64,000 nucleotides of DNA from a virus. The notes beneath the pieces are model-generated. The model saw only the letters and a program-made list of their open reading frames with translations, was not told the DNA's origin and did not search any database. The stretch's first letter is position 1; each line of letters begins with the position of its first letter. A program made the position numbers and the translations under genes. Below, one piece after another: positions 5,643-62,060 of the stretch. The stretch spans positions 96,001-160,000 of the IMG/VR virus record IMGVR_UViG_3300030329_005813. One strand, given 5' to 3'.

Positions 5643-5670
5643 TAAATAGTTCTTTCAATATCTAAATAGT
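5643..5670 (-). promoter_or_regulatory. Tandem ACTATTTA motifs, candidate phage late promoter
   Basis: Two copies (5643-5650, 5663-5670) in a 61-nt intergenic gap; same motif recurs upstream of many genes. Confidence 0.6.
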
Positions 5671-55901: not shown

Positions 55902-55909
55902 TAAGTAGT
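55902..55909 (-). promoter_or_regulatory. ACTACTTA candidate late promoter
   Basis: Intergenic, just after a terminator and ~36 nt upstream of phoH. Confidence 0.5.
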
Positions 55910-56747: not shown

Positions 56748-56812
56748 TTGCAAGCCTTCCCTACTCTATACTGTAAATAGTGTAGTAACAAGCATTAATT
56801 AATAATATTTTA

Positions 56813-57272: not shown

Positions 57273-57520
57273 GCTTTAAATAAAACTAAGTCTTTTAAAG
57301 CTTCTAAACAAATATATTTTTTTCCATTAATAATCCACTGAACATACACATAGCCTTCAAGCTTTAGTGGGCCGCCTGGAATTTTACAGTTATTTGGATT
57401 TCCAATTTTTGCTGGGTCTCTTGACCATATGAGACCATACGTATTTGTTTTTTGATTTTTATATTTTACTCTTTGGCCTTGTTTAAAAGAGCTTTTCTTT
57501 TTTCTTTTTCTAATTGCCAA
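57269..57520 (-). CDS. Small basic hypothetical protein (SH3-like FKxGxRV start)
   Basis: ORF fits gene packing; TTG start uncertain. Confidence 0.55.
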   Translation of the reverse strand: MAIRKRKKKSSFKQGQRVKYKNQKTNTYGLIWSRDPAKIGNPNNCKIPGGPLKLEGYVYVQWIINGKKYICLEALKDLVLFKA

Positions 57521-58170
57521 TTTTTAAGTCTTATTATGTCGTTTTCAATAGTAACATATGATTGATGTTCGACCCAATCACCCGTATTGACATAGGTTTT
57601 AATATCTTCATCTTTGTCAACCCAGATAAGCACTTCCGGAGTGTGGACATGACCCATTATAAATACATCGGCGTCTTTGTTCCACTCAATAATATCCCAA
57701 ATTCTTTTTGCTTTTCTTAGACGTAAATTATGATACCACGTTGTTAAATCAATATTTTTCCATCTTTCAATAAAATCTTGTACTATAGAAATAATGCTTA
57801 TGATAAAACGATGGTGAATAATACCTTTTTCATATTTATCTCCGTGTTCTATTCTATATTTTCTTTTACCTTCAATAAATTCATATTTATCAACAAAGTG
57901 TACACCAAATACTTCTTTGTTAATTAAATTTTGAAAAGATTTATCGTGATTTCCTATGATGTAAATTACTTTGTTTTTAAAATTTTCTATTATTTTAAAT
58001 AAAGCATAACTGTGATCTGTGAAAGATGGAATTTTTATAAAATCTATGATGTCACCAGCTAAAATTAATTCATCACAATCATCTGAAATTGAAAACAAAA
58101 ATTCAATTAATGCTTCTTCATTAGCATACTTACTACCAATATGAAGATCTGATATAATAACTCTTTTCAT
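57466..58170 (-). CDS. Calcineurin-like metallophosphoesterase (LpxH-like)
   Basis: ISDLHIG, LAGDIID, IGNHD, EHGD, MGHVH, NTGDW; start reassigned to ATG 58170. Confidence 0.9.
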   Translation of the reverse strand: MKRVIISDLHIGSKYANEEALIEFLFSISDDCDELILAGDIIDFIKIPSFTDHSYALFKIIENFKNKVIYIIGNHDKSFQNLINKEVFGVHFVDKYEFIEGKRKYRIEHGDKYEKGIIHHRFIISIISIVQDFIERWKNIDLTTWYHNLRLRKAKRIWDIIEWNKDADVFIMGHVHTPEVLIWVDKDEDIKTYVNTGDWVEHQSYVTIENDIIRLKNWQLEKEKRKALLNKAKE

Positions 58171-58193
58171 ATTGTACTCTTTATGTAAATAGA

Positions 58194-58526
58194 TGGAGGT
58201 GGCGGGATTCGAACCCGCGTCCGCAATAATTTTCAATTCAAGTCATTCACAGGCTTGGATAGTTTTTACTCCACAAACTAACAAATGTAGGCCTTTTTAT
58301 CCAACTATTTTTGGCCAATAATAGCTCGGGTGTTTTATTTTCAGCAGAACCATCTGCTTATCTGGATTTGGGTAATAAGGTAACCAGAGACCCCACGATT
58401 AAGCCGCTAAGCGAACAGATTCGAAATGATTATTGTTATTGGCAATTATCAAGTTGTTTGATTTTTAAGTCTCACGACTGCCTGCACTATCTTTTTCCAT
58501 TACCCCGTCGAAACCAAAGCACCCCC
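58194..58526 (-). ncRNA. ssrA: tmRNA
   Basis: 5' GGGGGTG..GGTTTCGAC, 3' GACGCGGGTTCGAATCCCGCCACCTCCA with G3-U pair; internal tag ORF 58443-58399 encodes ANNNNHFESVRLAA*. Confidence 0.95.
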
Positions 58527-58534
58527 TTAATATA

Positions 58535-58687
58535 TTATATTAAGTTGGTAATAATTGTGCTTACAACATTATTAAAATCAATTGTAAAAGTAACCCAATA
58601 AGTTACTATTAATGTTACCATTAACCCACTAAATATTCCATACTCTACAGCTGTGCTACCAACATCATTTTTAAAAAATCTATTCAT
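58535..58687 (-). CDS. flp: Flp/Fap-type (Tad) pilin homolog, 50 aa
   Basis: Hand translation MNRFFKNDVG|STAVEYGIFSGLMVTLIVTYWVTFTIDFNNVVSTIITNLI; Gly-1, Glu+5, Tyr+6, hydrophobic helix; GGGAG RBS; below the ORF track cut-off. Confidence 0.8.
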   Translation of the reverse strand: MNRFFKNDVGSTAVEYGIFSGLMVTLIVTYWVTFTIDFNNVVSTIITNLI

Positions 58688-58726
58688 TTTTTTCTCCCTA
58701 TACGCCCTTTCTTGAGATGAGCCAAA

Positions 58727-58734
58727 TAAATAGT
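58727..58734 (-). promoter_or_regulatory. ACTATTTA candidate late promoter for pilin/tmRNA
   Basis: Intergenic, ~40 nt upstream of the pilin ATG. Confidence 0.55.
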
Positions 58735-58738
58735 ATTT

Positions 58739-59092
58739 CTAATTTTCAAAGTATGATATTGGTTTGTATTTTTTCTTTAATTTCTGGAAATAATCCGGTC
58801 TCAGTCCCAAAAGTCTCATAGCTTCCACTTGAGTTCTGGTAGCTGAGTAAGCATACTTAAACATAGCATCTTTTACTATGTTTGTCAAGTTATGCCATAT
58901 AGGAAATCCATAAAGTCTATTATTAACTGGCTTACTGGCTAACTCCATTTTAAGACCAATTATTTCTTCAAGAGTTAAATTACTGAGCATTATTTCAAAG
59001 TCAATATTTATTTTTTTCTCTTGACGTAGCTTCTTAGATAGACTATAATAGGTATTACGTCCTTTCCTTAATTTCTTTCTTTTCCAAGACAT
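58739..59092 (-). CDS. Basic DNA-binding protein with Fis-like C-terminal HTH
   Basis: ATRTQVEAMRLLGLRPDYFQKLKKKY parallels the Fis/HTH_8 pattern [23 protein letters not shown]. Confidence 0.65.
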   Translation of the reverse strand: MSWKRKKLRKGRNTYYSLSKKLRQEKKINIDFEIMLSNLTLEEIIGLKMELASKPVNNRLYGFPIWHNLTNIVKDAMFKYAYSATRTQVEAMRLLGLRPDYFQKLKKKYKPISYFEN

Positions 59093-59098
59093 ATATAT

Positions 59099-59127
59099 AT
59101 TATAATATATTATATACTATATGTCAA
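59099..59127 (-). promoter_or_regulatory. Consensus sigma70 promoter giving a leaderless transcript
   Basis: TTGACA (59127-59122), 17 nt, TATAAT (59104-59099); ATG at 59092 is at the expected +1. Confidence 0.8.
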
Positions 59128-59908: not shown

Positions 59909-62060
59909 AGTGTAGCCCCTTATACTGTAATAAATAGTTTAAAACACGTTCAACGACTACATCTTTTTCATCTTCCTCTTCGGTAGGTTCTTCTTCGCGA
60001 ATAAGGGTTGATTTTTTATTTTTCCCAGCGCCACCTTCAACAGCACCGCCACCTGCTCCTCCCGCAGCCGAAATTTCTTCTACAGTACCATCTTGTAAGC
60101 CATCCATTTCCATATATGGCTTTTCTTTTTTCTTTTCGTTCAAAACTTCATACACCAATTCTGTGATAGCGCTTTCAAGACCACCAGCGGGTTCGGCAGA
60201 TTCAGGCTGAACTCCCAAAATAGATAAAATGTCAGCAGGATCTGTATTATCTGGTATAAATTTTTCTAGTCCCTGGCCCGTATCTAAAGCAGCACGAAAA
60301 GCAGAAGCGCTTAAAGGAGCCTCATCCGGCGCACTATAATACCAATCCATAATATTAGCTGGTATTACTCCATCTAACATTCCTTCTACTCCACGATGAA
60401 ACTTAATAAATCTATTATAGTCTGGCTGCCCTCTGCTGTCAGGCTTGTTGCTAGCTGCTGGTATGACTAAATCTCCTGGCTGGGGTATATAGTCTGGGAC
60501 TGTTCCTTTTAAGACTTCATATGAATTTTGCACAGGACTATTCCACGGCGCTGCCAAAATTAATACTTTATCGGATATACCAGCATCTTGTAAGTAGGTA
60601 TTCCAAATTTGTTCTGAGACTCCACGATCAACAGGTCGCCCAGCTGGCGTTTTCCTGTCGAGTGGAGAAATAAAAATATAAACCATATCTGCGCCTTTCT
60701 CCAATAGAGATAAGACAACATTTAAATGACCTTTATGGGGAGGCTTAAATGCACCAGGAAAAACAGCTATTTTTCTTTTAACGTCTTGAACGTTGGCTTC
60801 TTCTTCATCTAGTTTTTGCAAAGGAGGTACGCTTCCGCGGCCATACTTAAAAAGACCAAGAAGTTGATTCATTGGCGCAAAGTTTCCAGTAAACTTATAG
60901 GTGACTCCATCATAATCAAAAACAAAACCTTCGGCTGCTGTTGAAACGCCTTCAACATCTTTTAGTTTGCTCATCTGTTTGGTTAGGATTTCCATCGCTT
61001 CTTCAGAACCGCTCTCTTCGATGGCTTTAATGGCCCTAGAAGTCTCTTGTCGAAGTCTTTCGACTTCGGATACGTTATCTAGAATGAATGCGCTCTCAAG
61101 CCCTCTAAGCATCTCTACGGAGAAGTCGTGTACAATCTCTTCAACTGGTGCAATAGCATCCTTAAGTAGAGCACTAGAATTTTTAACTAAATCACGTACT
61201 ATAGCAATTGATTCTGCGTCTTCTTTTGGAATTAAACCAAGAACTTTTCTAATATTTCCGCCCTCTTCTTTAAAAATACGTTTTAAAAGTTCCATATTAG
61301 CTTCATCAGATAAAGAAATGCGCTGATCAATAGCTTTTTCAACGCGTGAAATCATATATTCTCCAACAGTTTGGTTGTCAGAGATGCCAGCTTGACTTAA
61401 AACACTTTCTAAACGTGCTATAGCTAAGTTAACAGCAGTATCATCACTTAAAGCTTCAAGACGCCGAATAGCATTCATTTGAACGTAAAATCTTCCTTCT
61501 TCACGTTCTCCTTGAACTCTTTCTAGCGCGGCAGCTAATTTTTTAGCATTTTTTGAAACATCGCGACCGGTTGGTCGACCGGTTTCTCTATCATATTCAT
61601 TATGGCCAACTCTATGAATAGTTAAAGTAGGTAAATCATAATTAATAAGATTTGCTGCACGAGGATCTTGAACTTCGGCATTATAATAAACATTTGTGTC
61701 TGGTCCGAATATTTCTTCACGCTCTTCAATGGACATTTTGCCAACAGCTTCTTCAAAAGCAGCAAATGCTTCATTAAAAGCTGTTTCTAGTGCGCCACGT
61801 CCACCAAACTTTTCTGCCAGTCCAGCAGCGTCTAAACCTCCATCCTTAATATTTCCTTTATTTCTAGCTGCTCTAGCCGAACTAGTTCTAATATTATAGG
61901 ATAATTGAAGATTTTGACCATCTGTTTTTTCAGTACCTTTTAACTCGCCCCCTGAAGCAGCTTGAAAAACTTGTTTCATTTCGCGAAAAGTTAAATTTGG
62001 ATTATCATACAGATGATTCATGTGGCCAGCGACGCCACCCTCTGAAAGAAATCGGCCCAT
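59901..62060 (-). CDS. Fusion: ligase-like nucleotidyltransferase domain + HxGH cytidylyltransferase-like domain
   Basis: TEKTDG (motif I KxDG), NAEV, EGFVF..YK (motifs IV/V); then FPGAFKPPHKGH and SASAFR. Confidence 0.7.
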   Translation of the reverse strand: MGRFLSEGGVAGHMNHLYDNPNLTFREMKQVFQAASGGELKGTEKTDGQNLQLSYNIRTSSARAARNKGNIKDGGLDAAGLAEKFGGRGALETAFNEAFAAFEEAVGKMSIEEREEIFGPDTNVYYNAEVQDPRAANLINYDLPTLTIHRVGHNEYDRETGRPTGRDVSKNAKKLAAALERVQGEREEGRFYVQMNAIRRLEALSDDTAVNLAIARLESVLSQAGISDNQTVGEYMISRVEKAIDQRISLSDEANMELLKRIFKEEGGNIRKVLGLIPKEDAESIAIVRDLVKNSSALLKDAIAPVEEIVHDFSVEMLRGLESAFILDNVSEVERLRQETSRAIKAIEESGSEEAMEILTKQMSKLKDVEGVSTAAEGFVFDYDGVTYKFTGNFAPMNQLLGLFKYGRGSVPPLQKLDEEEANVQDVKRKIAVFPGAFKPPHKGHLNVVLSLLEKGADMVYIFISPLDRKTPAGRPVDRGVSEQIWNTYLQDAGISDKVLILAAPWNSPVQNSYEVLKGTVPDYIPQPGDLVIPAASNKPDSRGQPDYNRFIKFHRGVEGMLDGVIPANIMDWYYSAPDEAPLSASAFRAALDTGQGLEKFIPDNTDPADILSILGVQPESAEPAGGLESAITELVYEVLNEKKKEKPYMEMDGLQDGTVEEISAAGGAGGGAVEGGAGKNKKSTLIREEEPTEEEDEKDVVVERVLNYLLQYKGLHYG

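What the first reader, a model, noticed from the sequence alone, without database searches (positions are those of the whole stretch)
58535..58734. Hidden phage-encoded Flp (Tad) pilin homolog
Seen: a 50-codon ORF absent from the supplied track, with RBS and an upstream ACTATTTA motif: MNRFFKNDVG|STAVEYGIFSGLMVTLIV... Known: Flp prepilins are short, are cleaved after Gly by the TadV/CpaA peptidase and carry Glu+5/Tyr+6 (Caulobacter PilA: RFLKDESG|ATAIEYGLI); Tad pili serve as phage receptors. No other tad gene is in the window. Inference: a decoy pilin that is processed by the host and alters or jams pilus assembly (superinfection exclusion, changed adhesion). It also hints that the host has Tad pili.
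Basis: partly seen in the sequence, partly recalled or inferred. Interest (0 to 1): 0.82.

Follow-up and report, generated by a model that had tools for sequence, protein, structure and literature searches.

The report
Phage-borne Flp (Tad) pilin gene
A large uncultured marine T4-like phage carries a real gene for the tiny subunit of a bacterial Tad adhesive pilus, always placed just before the phage's own tmRNA gene; sister phages carry it too, some with a second pilus gene, so these viruses probably feed their own subunits into the host's pilus machine.

Summary
A 50-codon ORF lies at 58535-58687 (-), with a GGGAG ribosome site and the ACTATTTA motif. It matches Pfam Flp_Fap over the whole profile (E 2e-5, 24.7 bits, below the 32.2 cut-off).

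Twelve diverged versions (30-90% identity) occupy the same slot in related marine phage contigs. All match Flp_Fap, several above the cut-off. F4, G10, T12, A13, E15, Y16 and G17 never change, and synonymous change exceeds non-synonymous change in all 66 pairs.

Solved Tad pilins start exactly after the conserved Gly. Each copy ends 4-18 nt before a one-piece phage tmRNA.

The 172-kb genome (95% complete, gp23 capsid, no integrase) has no other tad gene found. Several sister lineages also encode a TadE minor pilin.

The gene identity is well supported. What the pilin does is inferred: the host peptidase probably cuts it and the host Tad machine assembles it. "Decoy or jamming" is one option among several. 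The host was not identified.

I found no paper or PHROG family describing phage Flp. The closest precedents are pilins encoded by the archaeal provirus SNJ2 and FimU encoded by Pseudomonas prophages.

The scan had noted this same stretch once more in an overlapping window, not on other DNA.

The parts
58535..58687 (-). Flp-type prepilin gene, 50 codons plus stop. The leader is residues 1-10 (58658-58687). The predicted mature pilin is residues 11-50 (58538-58657), starting STAVEYG.
   Evidence: ORF list. Pfam Flp_Fap E 2e-5. Twelve syntenic orthologues all match PF04964. pS > pN in 66 of 66 pairs. Mature chains of solved Tad pilins 8u2b and 8u1k begin at profile position 11, right after Gly10.
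58694..58698 (-). Shine-Dalgarno GGGAG, 6 nt before the ATG.
   Evidence: Read from the sequence. AGGAG or GGGAG stands at the same place in 11 other lineages.
58727..58734 (-). ACTATTTA, a phage-specific promoter-like motif 40-47 nt before the Flp start.
   Evidence: Eleven ACTAYTTA hits, all on the coding strand. Eight of 11 lie within 70 nt upstream of a start (5.9% expected), including the baseplate wedge gene at 27281 and PhoH. (A)CTAYTTA is kept, with small variations, at the same offset before Flp in about ten lineages.
58191..58526 (-). One-piece phage tmRNA (tag ANNNNHFESVRLAA). It starts 8 nt after the Flp stop codon and is probably co-transcribed with Flp.
   Evidence: ARAGORN. Rfam RF00023, 114 bits. 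The Flp-to-tmRNA gap is 4-18 nt in 11 lineages.
58739..59092 (-). Conserved 117-aa gene of unknown function, directly upstream. It marks the slot in all related phages.
   Evidence: Synteny in L002-L028 and IMG/VR contigs. No Pfam or PHROG match.
59099..59127 (-). Perfect sigma-70-type promoter match (TTGACA-17-TATAAT) before the 117-aa gene. It is a possible early promoter that reads through Flp and the tmRNA.
   Evidence: Consensus scan, 12 of 12. Matches of 11 of 12 occur within about 200-260 nt upstream of Flp in five other lineages. This is a consensus match only.

Best explanation
The ORF is a genuine, expressed Flp-type (Tad, type IVc) prepilin gene. It belongs to a phage-specific Flp clade that has been kept for a long time in a group of uncultured marine T4-like phages, in a fixed slot between a conserved 117-aa gene and the phage's one-piece tmRNA.

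Shown:
- family membership at the sequence level;
- conservation of the Gly(-1), Glu(+5), Tyr(+6) processing and assembly motif;
- purifying selection;
- a conserved promoter-like motif and ribosome site;
- no prepilin peptidase, ATPase, platform or other pilin detected in this 95%-complete genome by the family searches run;
- a TadE minor pilin in several sister lineages.

Inferred: the gene is transcribed from its own ACTAYTTA promoter (also found before a baseplate gene, so perhaps late) and possibly by read-through from an upstream sigma-70-type promoter. The transcript runs on into the tmRNA. The 50-aa product inserts into the host inner membrane. The host's TadV/CpaA-type peptidase cuts it after Gly10. 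The 40-aa mature pilin is then taken up by the host's Tad assembly machine, where it replaces or mixes with the host's own Flp. The infected cell then carries phage-specified Tad pili.

The most likely payoff is a changed pilus surface that hides a pilus receptor from other phages or from the phage's own progeny. Changed adhesion of the infected cell is the alternative.
For: - Pfam Flp_Fap matches nearly the whole profile. All 12 orthologues match, and those scored singly reach 33.1, 36.1 and 44.8 bits, above the cut-off of 32.2.
- F4, G10, T12, A13, E15, Y16 and G17 are invariant across 12 versions that are only 30-90% identical.
- pS > pN in all 66 pairs, with dN/dS 0.06-0.6 where it can be computed.
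- A profile of the phage Flps hits the solved Tad pilins 8u2b/8ucr (E 6e-4) and Caulobacter PilA 8u1k (E 5e-3). Their mature N-terminus aligns to the residue after Gly10.
- A representative search found 1784 Flp-like proteins. The top dozen or so are the same short clade. Every one whose context I fetched lies in the same phage synteny next to a tmRNA.
- The promoter-like motif, a 5' hairpin and a Shine-Dalgarno are conserved before Flp.
- The own genome gave no hit for TadE, A24 peptidase, T2SSE, T2SSF or TadG. It has a gp23 capsid and no integrase.
- TadE (37.7-51.5 bits) is present in sister lineages L007/L009/L010, L011-L015, L018 and G002/G003.
- Precedents for virus-encoded pilins that use host machinery: SNJ2 PilA1/2, and prophage FimU of P. 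aeruginosa (PMC12426801).
Against: - The window's own protein scores below Pfam's gathering threshold. It is the most diverged, most AT-rich member (25% GC) and has lost the 5' hairpin seen in sister lineages.
- No expression, processing or piliation data exist.
- The host is unknown, so a host Tad system is assumed and not shown.
- Flp is missing from 5 of 12 evaluable IMG/VR relatives that carry the same tmRNA, so it is dispensable.
- If ACTAYTTA is a late promoter, a pilus change late in infection has a less obvious benefit.
Confidence: 0.6

Rival explanations
1. Decoy or poison subunit. The phage Flp is processed by the host but cannot support normal polymerisation, or it titrates the peptidase or platform. 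Tad pili are lost or blocked, which excludes pilus-dependent phages.
For: There is no tad machinery in the phage, so it must act on the host's. Phages are known to switch off type IV pili for exclusion (Tip, PfsE; cited in PMC12426801). The window's version is the most diverged, with a Ser at +1 and an unusual C-terminal half.
Against: Glu5 and Tyr6, the motif residues a working pilin is expected to need (my background knowledge, not tested here), are invariant. The whole 40-aa mature part is under purifying selection. A blocker would need only the leader and N-terminus. Several sister phages add a TadE minor pilin, which is needed to build pili and not to stop them.
Confidence: 0.17
2. Co-opted small membrane protein. 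The Flp fold (one hydrophobic helix) is used for something other than a pilus, such as a lysis-timing or membrane-perturbing protein made with the late genes.
For: It is 50 aa and very hydrophobic. It shares the ACTAYTTA motif with a baseplate gene. In some relatives the same slot holds an unrelated 62-68-aa membrane protein with a weak DUF2061 match.
Against: The invariant positions are exactly the prepilin-peptidase and assembly motif (G, E, Y), not generic hydrophobicity. TadE co-occurs in sister phages. No lysis genes were seen next to it.
Confidence: 0.12
3. Passenger. Flp was captured together with a tmRNA from some bacterium and persists by linkage, with no role in infection.
For: The tight Flp-tmRNA adjacency holds in every lineage. 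The regions on both sides of the tmRNA are cassette hot spots: metallophosphoesterase, FNR-like, transaldolase, TadE, HNH. Flp is absent from 5 of 12 relatives.
Against: Purifying selection acts over deep divergence. A dedicated promoter motif and ribosome site are conserved. No bacterial species genome carries this tmRNA signature or a close Flp or TadE; the best cellular matches were about 50% identity for Flp and below 40% for TadE wherever most of the protein aligned.
Confidence: 0.08
4. Chance ORF in the leader of the tmRNA gene, not a gene.
For: It is short and AT-rich. The Pfam score is below the cut-off.
Against: Orthologues at 30-60% identity keep the frame, the length and the motif. 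pS > pN in 66 of 66 pairs.
Confidence: 0.02

Closest known systems
Flp/Fap major pilins of Tad (type IVc) pili: Caulobacter PilA (PDB 8u1k) and 'Flp family type IVb pilin' (PDB 8u2b/8ucr); Pfam PF04964
   Same: The size is the same (about 50 aa prepilin, 40-45 aa mature). Both have a short basic leader ending in Gly, then xTAxEYG and a hydrophobic helix. The profile match places the solved mature N-terminus exactly after the phage Gly10.
   Different: It is encoded by a T4-like phage with no integrase found, and it has no tad operon, peptidase or ATPase. The window's copy scores below Pfam's cut-off and has Ser instead of Ala at +1.
Type IV pilins PilA1/PilA2 of the haloarchaeal provirus SNJ2 (Xiang et al. 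2025, PMC12426801)
   Same: A virus carries major pilin genes only, and these use the host's secretion and assembly machine. There, the viral pilins become the dominant surface filament and change biofilm formation, motility and susceptibility to another virus.
   Different: That is an archaeal temperate pleolipovirus with archaeal type IV pilins, and the function has been shown by experiment. Here it is a bacterial Tad-type pilin in a T4-like myovirus with no integrase found, and the function is only inferred.
FimU minor pilin encoded by Pseudomonas aeruginosa prophages (as cited in PMC12426801)
   Same: A phage-borne pilus component is incorporated into the host pilus and protects against pilus-dependent phages. 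It is the closest bacterial analogue of the Flp/TadE toolkit seen here.
   Different: That is a type IVa pilus, a minor pilin and a temperate phage. I know it only through the citing paper and did not read the original.
Phage inhibitors of type IV pili: Tip of D3112 and PfsE of Pf phages (as cited in PMC12426801)
   Same: The possible goal is the same: changing the host pilus so that other phages cannot adsorb.
   Different: Those proteins bind PilB or PilC. They are not pilins and share no sequence relationship with Flp.
tmRNA genes of marine myophages such as OM43 phage Melnitz and pelagimyophages (Buchholz et al. 2022, PMC9004378)
   Same: A complete phage-borne ssrA in a marine T4-like phage, placed behind a promoter and within a variable region.
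   Different: Those tmRNAs are two-piece. That paper counts only 2.5% of one-piece phage tmRNAs as marine and does not mention a pilin. Here the tmRNA is one-piece and is preceded by Flp.

Membership tests
Flp/Fap pilin (Pfam PF04964) | Match to the family HMM at or above the curated gathering score (32.2 bits) | tested here: not met
   The window protein scores 24.7 bits, E 2e-5, over profile positions 1-44 of 46. The syntenic orthologues scored singly pass: 33.1, 36.1 and 44.8 bits. All 12 match at E <= 1e-3. Membership therefore rests on orthology plus the sub-threshold match.
Flp/Fap pilin (Pfam PF04964) | Prepilin-peptidase motif: Gly at -1, Glu at +5, Tyr at +6 (G|xxxxEY) | tested here: met
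   The window reads KNDVG|STAVEYG. G10, E15 and Y16 are invariant in 12 diverged versions. Solved mature Tad pilins begin at the aligned position 11.
Flp/Fap pilin (Pfam PF04964) | Very small size (about 45-80 aa), with a hydrophobic helix of about 20 residues directly after the cleavage site | tested here: met
   50 aa. Residues 17-34 are almost entirely hydrophobic.
Flp/Fap pilin (Pfam PF04964) | Cleavage by a TadV/CpaA-type (A24) prepilin peptidase | not testable with these tools
   No A24 peptidase was found in the own genome or in four related viral records. A host enzyme would be needed.
Tad pilus system (tad/cpa locus) | Pilin gene accompanied by a TadA/CpaF ATPase, a TadB/C platform, a secretin and TadE/F/G minor pilins | tested here: not met
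   The own 172-kb genome gave no hit for T2SSE, T2SSF, TadE, Tad/TadG or A24. A secretin was not searched for. Sister phages add TadE only. The phage carries pilin genes, not a system.
Virus-encoded pilins that use host machinery (SNJ2 PilA1/2, prophage FimU) | The viral pilin is assembled into a host-built filament and changes host surface properties | not testable with these tools
   This is an analogy only (PMC12426801). It needs expression and imaging in a Tad-positive host.

The most novel reading that the evidence does not exclude
A whole clade of marine T4-like phages (no integrase found in the one near-complete genome) carries its own Tad-pilin toolkit: the Flp major subunit, and in many members the TadE minor subunit. 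During infection they rebuild the host's adhesive pilus into a phage-specified filament. This would either tether the infected cell to particles or neighbouring cells to aid spread, or hide the pilus receptor from competing phages. The strict Flp-then-tmRNA arrangement would be a functional bicistronic precursor in which RNase P cleavage at the tmRNA 5' end sets the 3' end of the pilin mRNA.
Probability: 0.2. Interest if true: 0.8.

Novelty: new variant of a known kind. Interest (0 to 1): 0.6.

Why it matters
Tad pili drive adhesion, surface sensing and biofilm formation, and they serve as phage receptors. Virus-encoded pilins that take over host assembly machines have only recently been shown, for an archaeal provirus and for a Pseudomonas prophage minor pilin.

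A conserved Flp gene, with TadE in some lineages, in abundant uncultured ocean T4-like phages would extend that idea in three directions: to the Tad class of pili, to phages that look virulent, and to marine virus-host ecology. It gives a small 50-aa gene that can be tested directly.

It also offers a host clue, because the host should own a Tad system with an A24 peptidase. And it flags a gene class that phage annotation resources currently miss: PHROGs has no family for it.

Tried and rejected
- **L007 as a phage-host junction.** The contig switches from the window lineage to other genes, including TadE, inside the tmRNA. I first read it as a prophage-host junction. I rejected that because the right half matches a sister phage lineage with full phage synteny. 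It is a recombinant or an assembly chimera across the near-identical 5' 215 nt of the tmRNA.
- **Host search, all negative or uninformative.**
  - An exact scan of the tmRNA tag region in 185,579 species genomes found nothing.
  - A scan with the tmRNA PK1 signature found nothing.
  - A scan with one TadE protein found nothing.
  - A TadE profile scan gave below 40% identity wherever most of the protein aligned.
- **GenBank phages.** tblastn with a strong Flp orthologue found no match. blastn with the tmRNA matched only a 50-nt T-arm stretch. blastn with the 6-kb region matched only tRNAs.
- **PHROGs.** No family matched Flp, TadE, the 85-aa protein or the DUF2061-like protein.
- **First viral-contig scan** with the single window protein found nothing. 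The alignment-based scan and the tmRNA-pattern scan worked.
- **RNAalifold** on the Flp 5' leaders gave only a 3-bp consensus, because the alignment is poor. Single-sequence folds show the hairpin.
- **Literature searches** for phage-encoded Flp, Tad or pilin found nothing on point.
- **Not run.** I ran no AlphaFold model, because a 40-residue single helix gives no discriminating fold match. I ran no complex prediction, because no host partner is known.

Full report
**1. What is at the coordinates.** The minus strand carries a 50-codon ORF at 58535..58687. It begins MNRFFKNDVG|STAVEYG and continues as an almost purely hydrophobic stretch. A GGGAG Shine-Dalgarno lies 6 nt before the ATG (58694-58698), and ACTATTTA lies at 58727-58734. 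The stop codon is followed 8 nt later by the 5' end of a one-piece tmRNA at 58191-58526 (ARAGORN; Rfam RF00023, 114 bits). Three tRNA genes follow further downstream.

**2. Is it a Flp pilin?**
- Pfam Flp_Fap (PF04964) matches residues 4-47 to profile positions 1-44 of 46, with E 2e-5 and 24.7 bits. This is below the gathering score of 32.2. NCBIfam and PHROGs give nothing. On its own this would be only suggestive.
- The comparative evidence settles it. The 5.8-billion-protein search found one 90%-identical relative. Its contigs, and those reached from them, show the same gene in the same slot in many marine metagenome and IMG/VR contigs.
- I collected 12 distinct versions that are 30-90% identical to each other. 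All 12 match PF04964 at E <= 1e-3, with a best value of 1.2e-12. The three scored singly reach 33.1, 36.1 and 44.8 bits, above the cut-off.
- F4, G10, T12, A13, E15, Y16 and G17 are invariant. This set contains the Gly(-1)/Glu(+5)/Tyr(+6) motif.
- The proportion of synonymous differences exceeds the non-synonymous proportion in all 66 pairs. dN/dS is 0.06-0.6 where dS is not saturated.
- A profile of the phage proteins hits two solved Tad pilins: 8u2b/8ucr ('Flp family type IVb pilin', E 6e-4) and Caulobacter PilA 8u1k (E 5e-3). In both, residue 1 of the mature chain aligns to the position right after the conserved Gly.
- The predicted product is therefore a 10-residue leader and a 40-residue mature pilin. 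A chance ORF is excluded.

**3. The phage.** The window is bases 96001-160000 of a 172,361-bp IMG/VR virus record that is estimated to be 95% complete.
- It encodes a T4 gp23-family capsid protein (203 bits), a baseplate wedge protein, a PIN-PhoH fusion and no tyrosine integrase. It is thus a T4-like myovirus and probably virulent.
- No isolate is close. The capsid protein is 49% identical to that of Flavobacterium phage immuto, 48.5% to Microcystis phage Mel-JY01 and 41% to Rhodothermus phage RM378.
- The genome has no detectable TadE, A24 prepilin peptidase, TadA-type ATPase, TadB/C platform or TadG. Flp is the only tad gene found, and any pilin function must use host machinery.

**4. A conserved Flp-tmRNA module.**
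- In every lineage with Flp, the gene ends 4-18 nt before a homologous one-piece tmRNA. The tags vary: ANNNNHFESVRLAA, ANNNNHFELALAA, ANNNNFELALAA, ANNNNYEMALAA and ANNNNYELAQAA.
- Flp always follows the same conserved 117-119-aa gene.
- Thirteen IMG/VR contigs carry this tmRNA signature, and 12 can be evaluated. Seven have Flp in the slot. Two have the tmRNA directly after the 117-aa gene. Two have a different small membrane protein (a weak DUF2061 match) instead. One has another context altogether.
- Flp is therefore a frequent but dispensable accessory gene.
- The cassette after the tmRNA also varies: a metallophosphoesterase here, an FNR-like reductase, a transaldolase, or a TadE block elsewhere.
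- No bacterial species genome holds this tmRNA signature, and no GenBank phage has a related tmRNA. The published marine phage tmRNAs are mostly two-piece, and that paper does not mention a pilin (PMC9004378).

**5. A second pilin in sister phages.**
- Lineages L007/L009/L010, L011-L015 and L018 encode a 138-145-aa TadE minor pilin just downstream of the tmRNA. The one scanned directly (L011) scores 37.7 bits against a cut-off of 22.9. It is preceded by a conserved 54-58-aa partner.
- The 183-kb record G002 and record G003 carry TadE (51.5 bits) with a homologous 63-aa partner elsewhere in the genome.
- L014 has TadE but no Flp in the slot. The window's phage has Flp but no TadE.
- None of the four related viral records searched has an A24 peptidase.
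- This phage group therefore carries Tad pilin genes in several combinations but never, as far as seen, the machinery.

**6. Expression signals.**
- ACTAYTTA occurs 11 times on the coding strand of the window and never on the other strand. Eight of the 11 lie within 70 nt upstream of a start codon, against 5.9% expected. The genes served include the baseplate wedge gene (start 27281), PhoH and Flp.
- The motif, as (A)CTAYTTA with small variations, stands at the same offset before Flp in about ten lineages. In seven of the eight lineages folded it is followed by a 5-9-bp hairpin whose stem sequence differs between lineages, and then by AGGAG.
- In the window lineage the hairpin has decayed to -3.5 kcal/mol, z = 0.26.
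- A perfect sigma-70 consensus (TTGACA-17-TATAAT) precedes the 117-aa gene at 59127-59099.
- Because only 8 nt separate Flp from the tmRNA, the two are probably on one transcript. This is an inference. Whether ACTAYTTA is a late promoter is also an inference from the company it keeps.

**7. Origin and host.**
- The closest cellular Flps in 185,579 species genomes are at most about 50% identical over most of their length, and almost all are from Alphaproteobacteria (Caulobacterales, Hyphomicrobiales).
- The closest cellular TadEs are below 40% identical wherever most of the protein aligned.
- The phage clade is therefore old and phage-specific, not a recent pick-up.
- The host remains unknown. 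The Flp type points weakly to Alphaproteobacteria. The capsid relatives, the low GC content and the one-piece tmRNA point weakly elsewhere, for example to Bacteroidota.
- Contig L007 first looked like a phage-host junction inside the tmRNA. It is in fact a hybrid of two phage lineages, either a recombinant or an assembly chimera.

**8. How it most likely works.**
- Shown: it is a conserved, selected Flp prepilin gene with an intact processing and assembly motif, in a phage that lacks every other Tad component searched for.
- Inferred: host TadV/CpaA cleavage after Gly10, then uptake of the 40-aa subunit by the host Tad machine, so that infected cells carry phage-specified pili.
- I prefer remodelling to pure jamming for three reasons. 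The whole mature part is under selection. Glu5 and Tyr6 are invariant. Sister phages add a minor pilin that is used to build pili.
- The benefit (receptor masking and exclusion, or changed adhesion) is open.
- Between the window and its 99%-identical relative L002, the 150-nt bin covering most of the Flp ORF holds 8 differences, against about 1% for the surrounding 7 kb. Over the whole ORF there are 9 nucleotide differences (Sd 3, Nd 6) giving 5 amino-acid changes, all in the mature part. This hints at faster change of the pilin body, but the numbers are small and one other bin is equally variable.

**9. Comparison with what is known.**
- By sequence it is an Flp/Fap pilin. It is a member through orthology, although its own Pfam score is sub-threshold. 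It is not a Tad system.
- By logic, the closest case is the haloarchaeal provirus SNJ2. Its two pilins hijack host machinery and become the dominant filament (PMC12426801).
- The next closest are Pseudomonas prophages that express a FimU minor pilin for anti-phage defence (cited in the same paper).
- I found no paper on phage-encoded Flp or TadE and no PHROG family for either.
- I therefore rate it a new variant of a known kind: a Tad-class pilus, a bacterial T4-like phage with no integrase found, and a conserved position next to a phage tmRNA.

**10. Verdict.** The gene identity is supported at roughly 0.95. Use of the host's Tad machinery stands at about 0.6. The specific decoy or jamming mechanism is one minority option. 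Interest is 0.6.

Noticed in passing
window, minus strand: 59931-59938, 58727-58734, 56774-56781, 55902-55909, 27303-27310, 5663-5670, 5643-5650, 989-996: ACTAYTTA is a strand-specific, start-proximal motif. It has 11 hits, none on the other strand, and 8 lie within 70 nt upstream of a start. It precedes a baseplate wedge gene, PhoH, Flp and others. It is probably this phage group's own (late?) promoter element and differs from T4's TATAAATA.
   Followed up: partly
L009:8982-9020, L011:9407-9445, L018:7962-8000, L022:77-115, L023:331-369, L024:384-422, L028:909-947: A 5-9-bp hairpin lies between the promoter-like motif and the ribosome site of Flp. Its stem sequence differs between lineages (ACACCC/GGGUGU, GAACUCA/UGAGUUC, CGCUC/GAGCG). 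It could be a stabiliser at the 5' end of the mRNA. The window lineage has lost it.
   Followed up: partly
L007:1728-2061 (ERR594370 k127_136318): The tmRNA is a hybrid. Its 5' 215 nt are identical to the window lineage and its 3' end matches the TadE-bearing sister lineage. This is either recombination between co-occurring phages inside the tmRNA or an assembly chimera.
   Followed up: partly
L011:10001-10869, L018:8556-9504, L030:2783-3646 (G002): A mobile TadE cassette. The TadE minor pilin is always preceded by a conserved 54-63-aa protein with the motif RNDGWTK(Q/Y)HY. Next to the tmRNA it also follows an 85-aa protein that is identical across many contigs (27 collection blocks). Neither small protein matches any family.
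   Followed up: partly
L020:7730-7936, L114 and L120 (upstream of the tmRNA), L014:1705-1971: A 62-88-aa membrane protein (weak DUF2061 match, E 0.005) can occupy the same slot before the tmRNA, either alone or together with Flp.
   Followed up: no
window 58191-58526 and alignment A5: This one-piece tmRNA lineage has variable Asn-rich tags (ANNNN...). It was found in 13 IMG/VR contigs, in none of 185,579 bacterial species genomes, and in no GenBank phage. Helices differ between lineages in a way that looks compensatory, though this was not counted.
   Followed up: partly
window 57466-58236 (-): The 256-aa ORF in the mechanical list overlaps the 3' end of the tmRNA. The real metallophosphoesterase gene most likely starts at 58170 (234 aa, as called in public contigs), 22 nt after a CTATTTA motif that overlaps the tmRNA end.
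   Followed up: partly
L008:10733-11260: An HNH endonuclease gene (175 aa) is inserted between the cytidylyltransferase and PhoH genes in the contig that carries the window's exact Flp. It is absent from the 99%-identical L002 lineage.
   Followed up: no
L019:1816-1998 (IMGVR_UViG_2821042281_000001, provirus): An unrelated high-GC provirus record also holds an ordinary alphaproteobacterial-type Flp gene (60 aa). I did not check whether it belongs to the provirus or to host flank.
   Followed up: no
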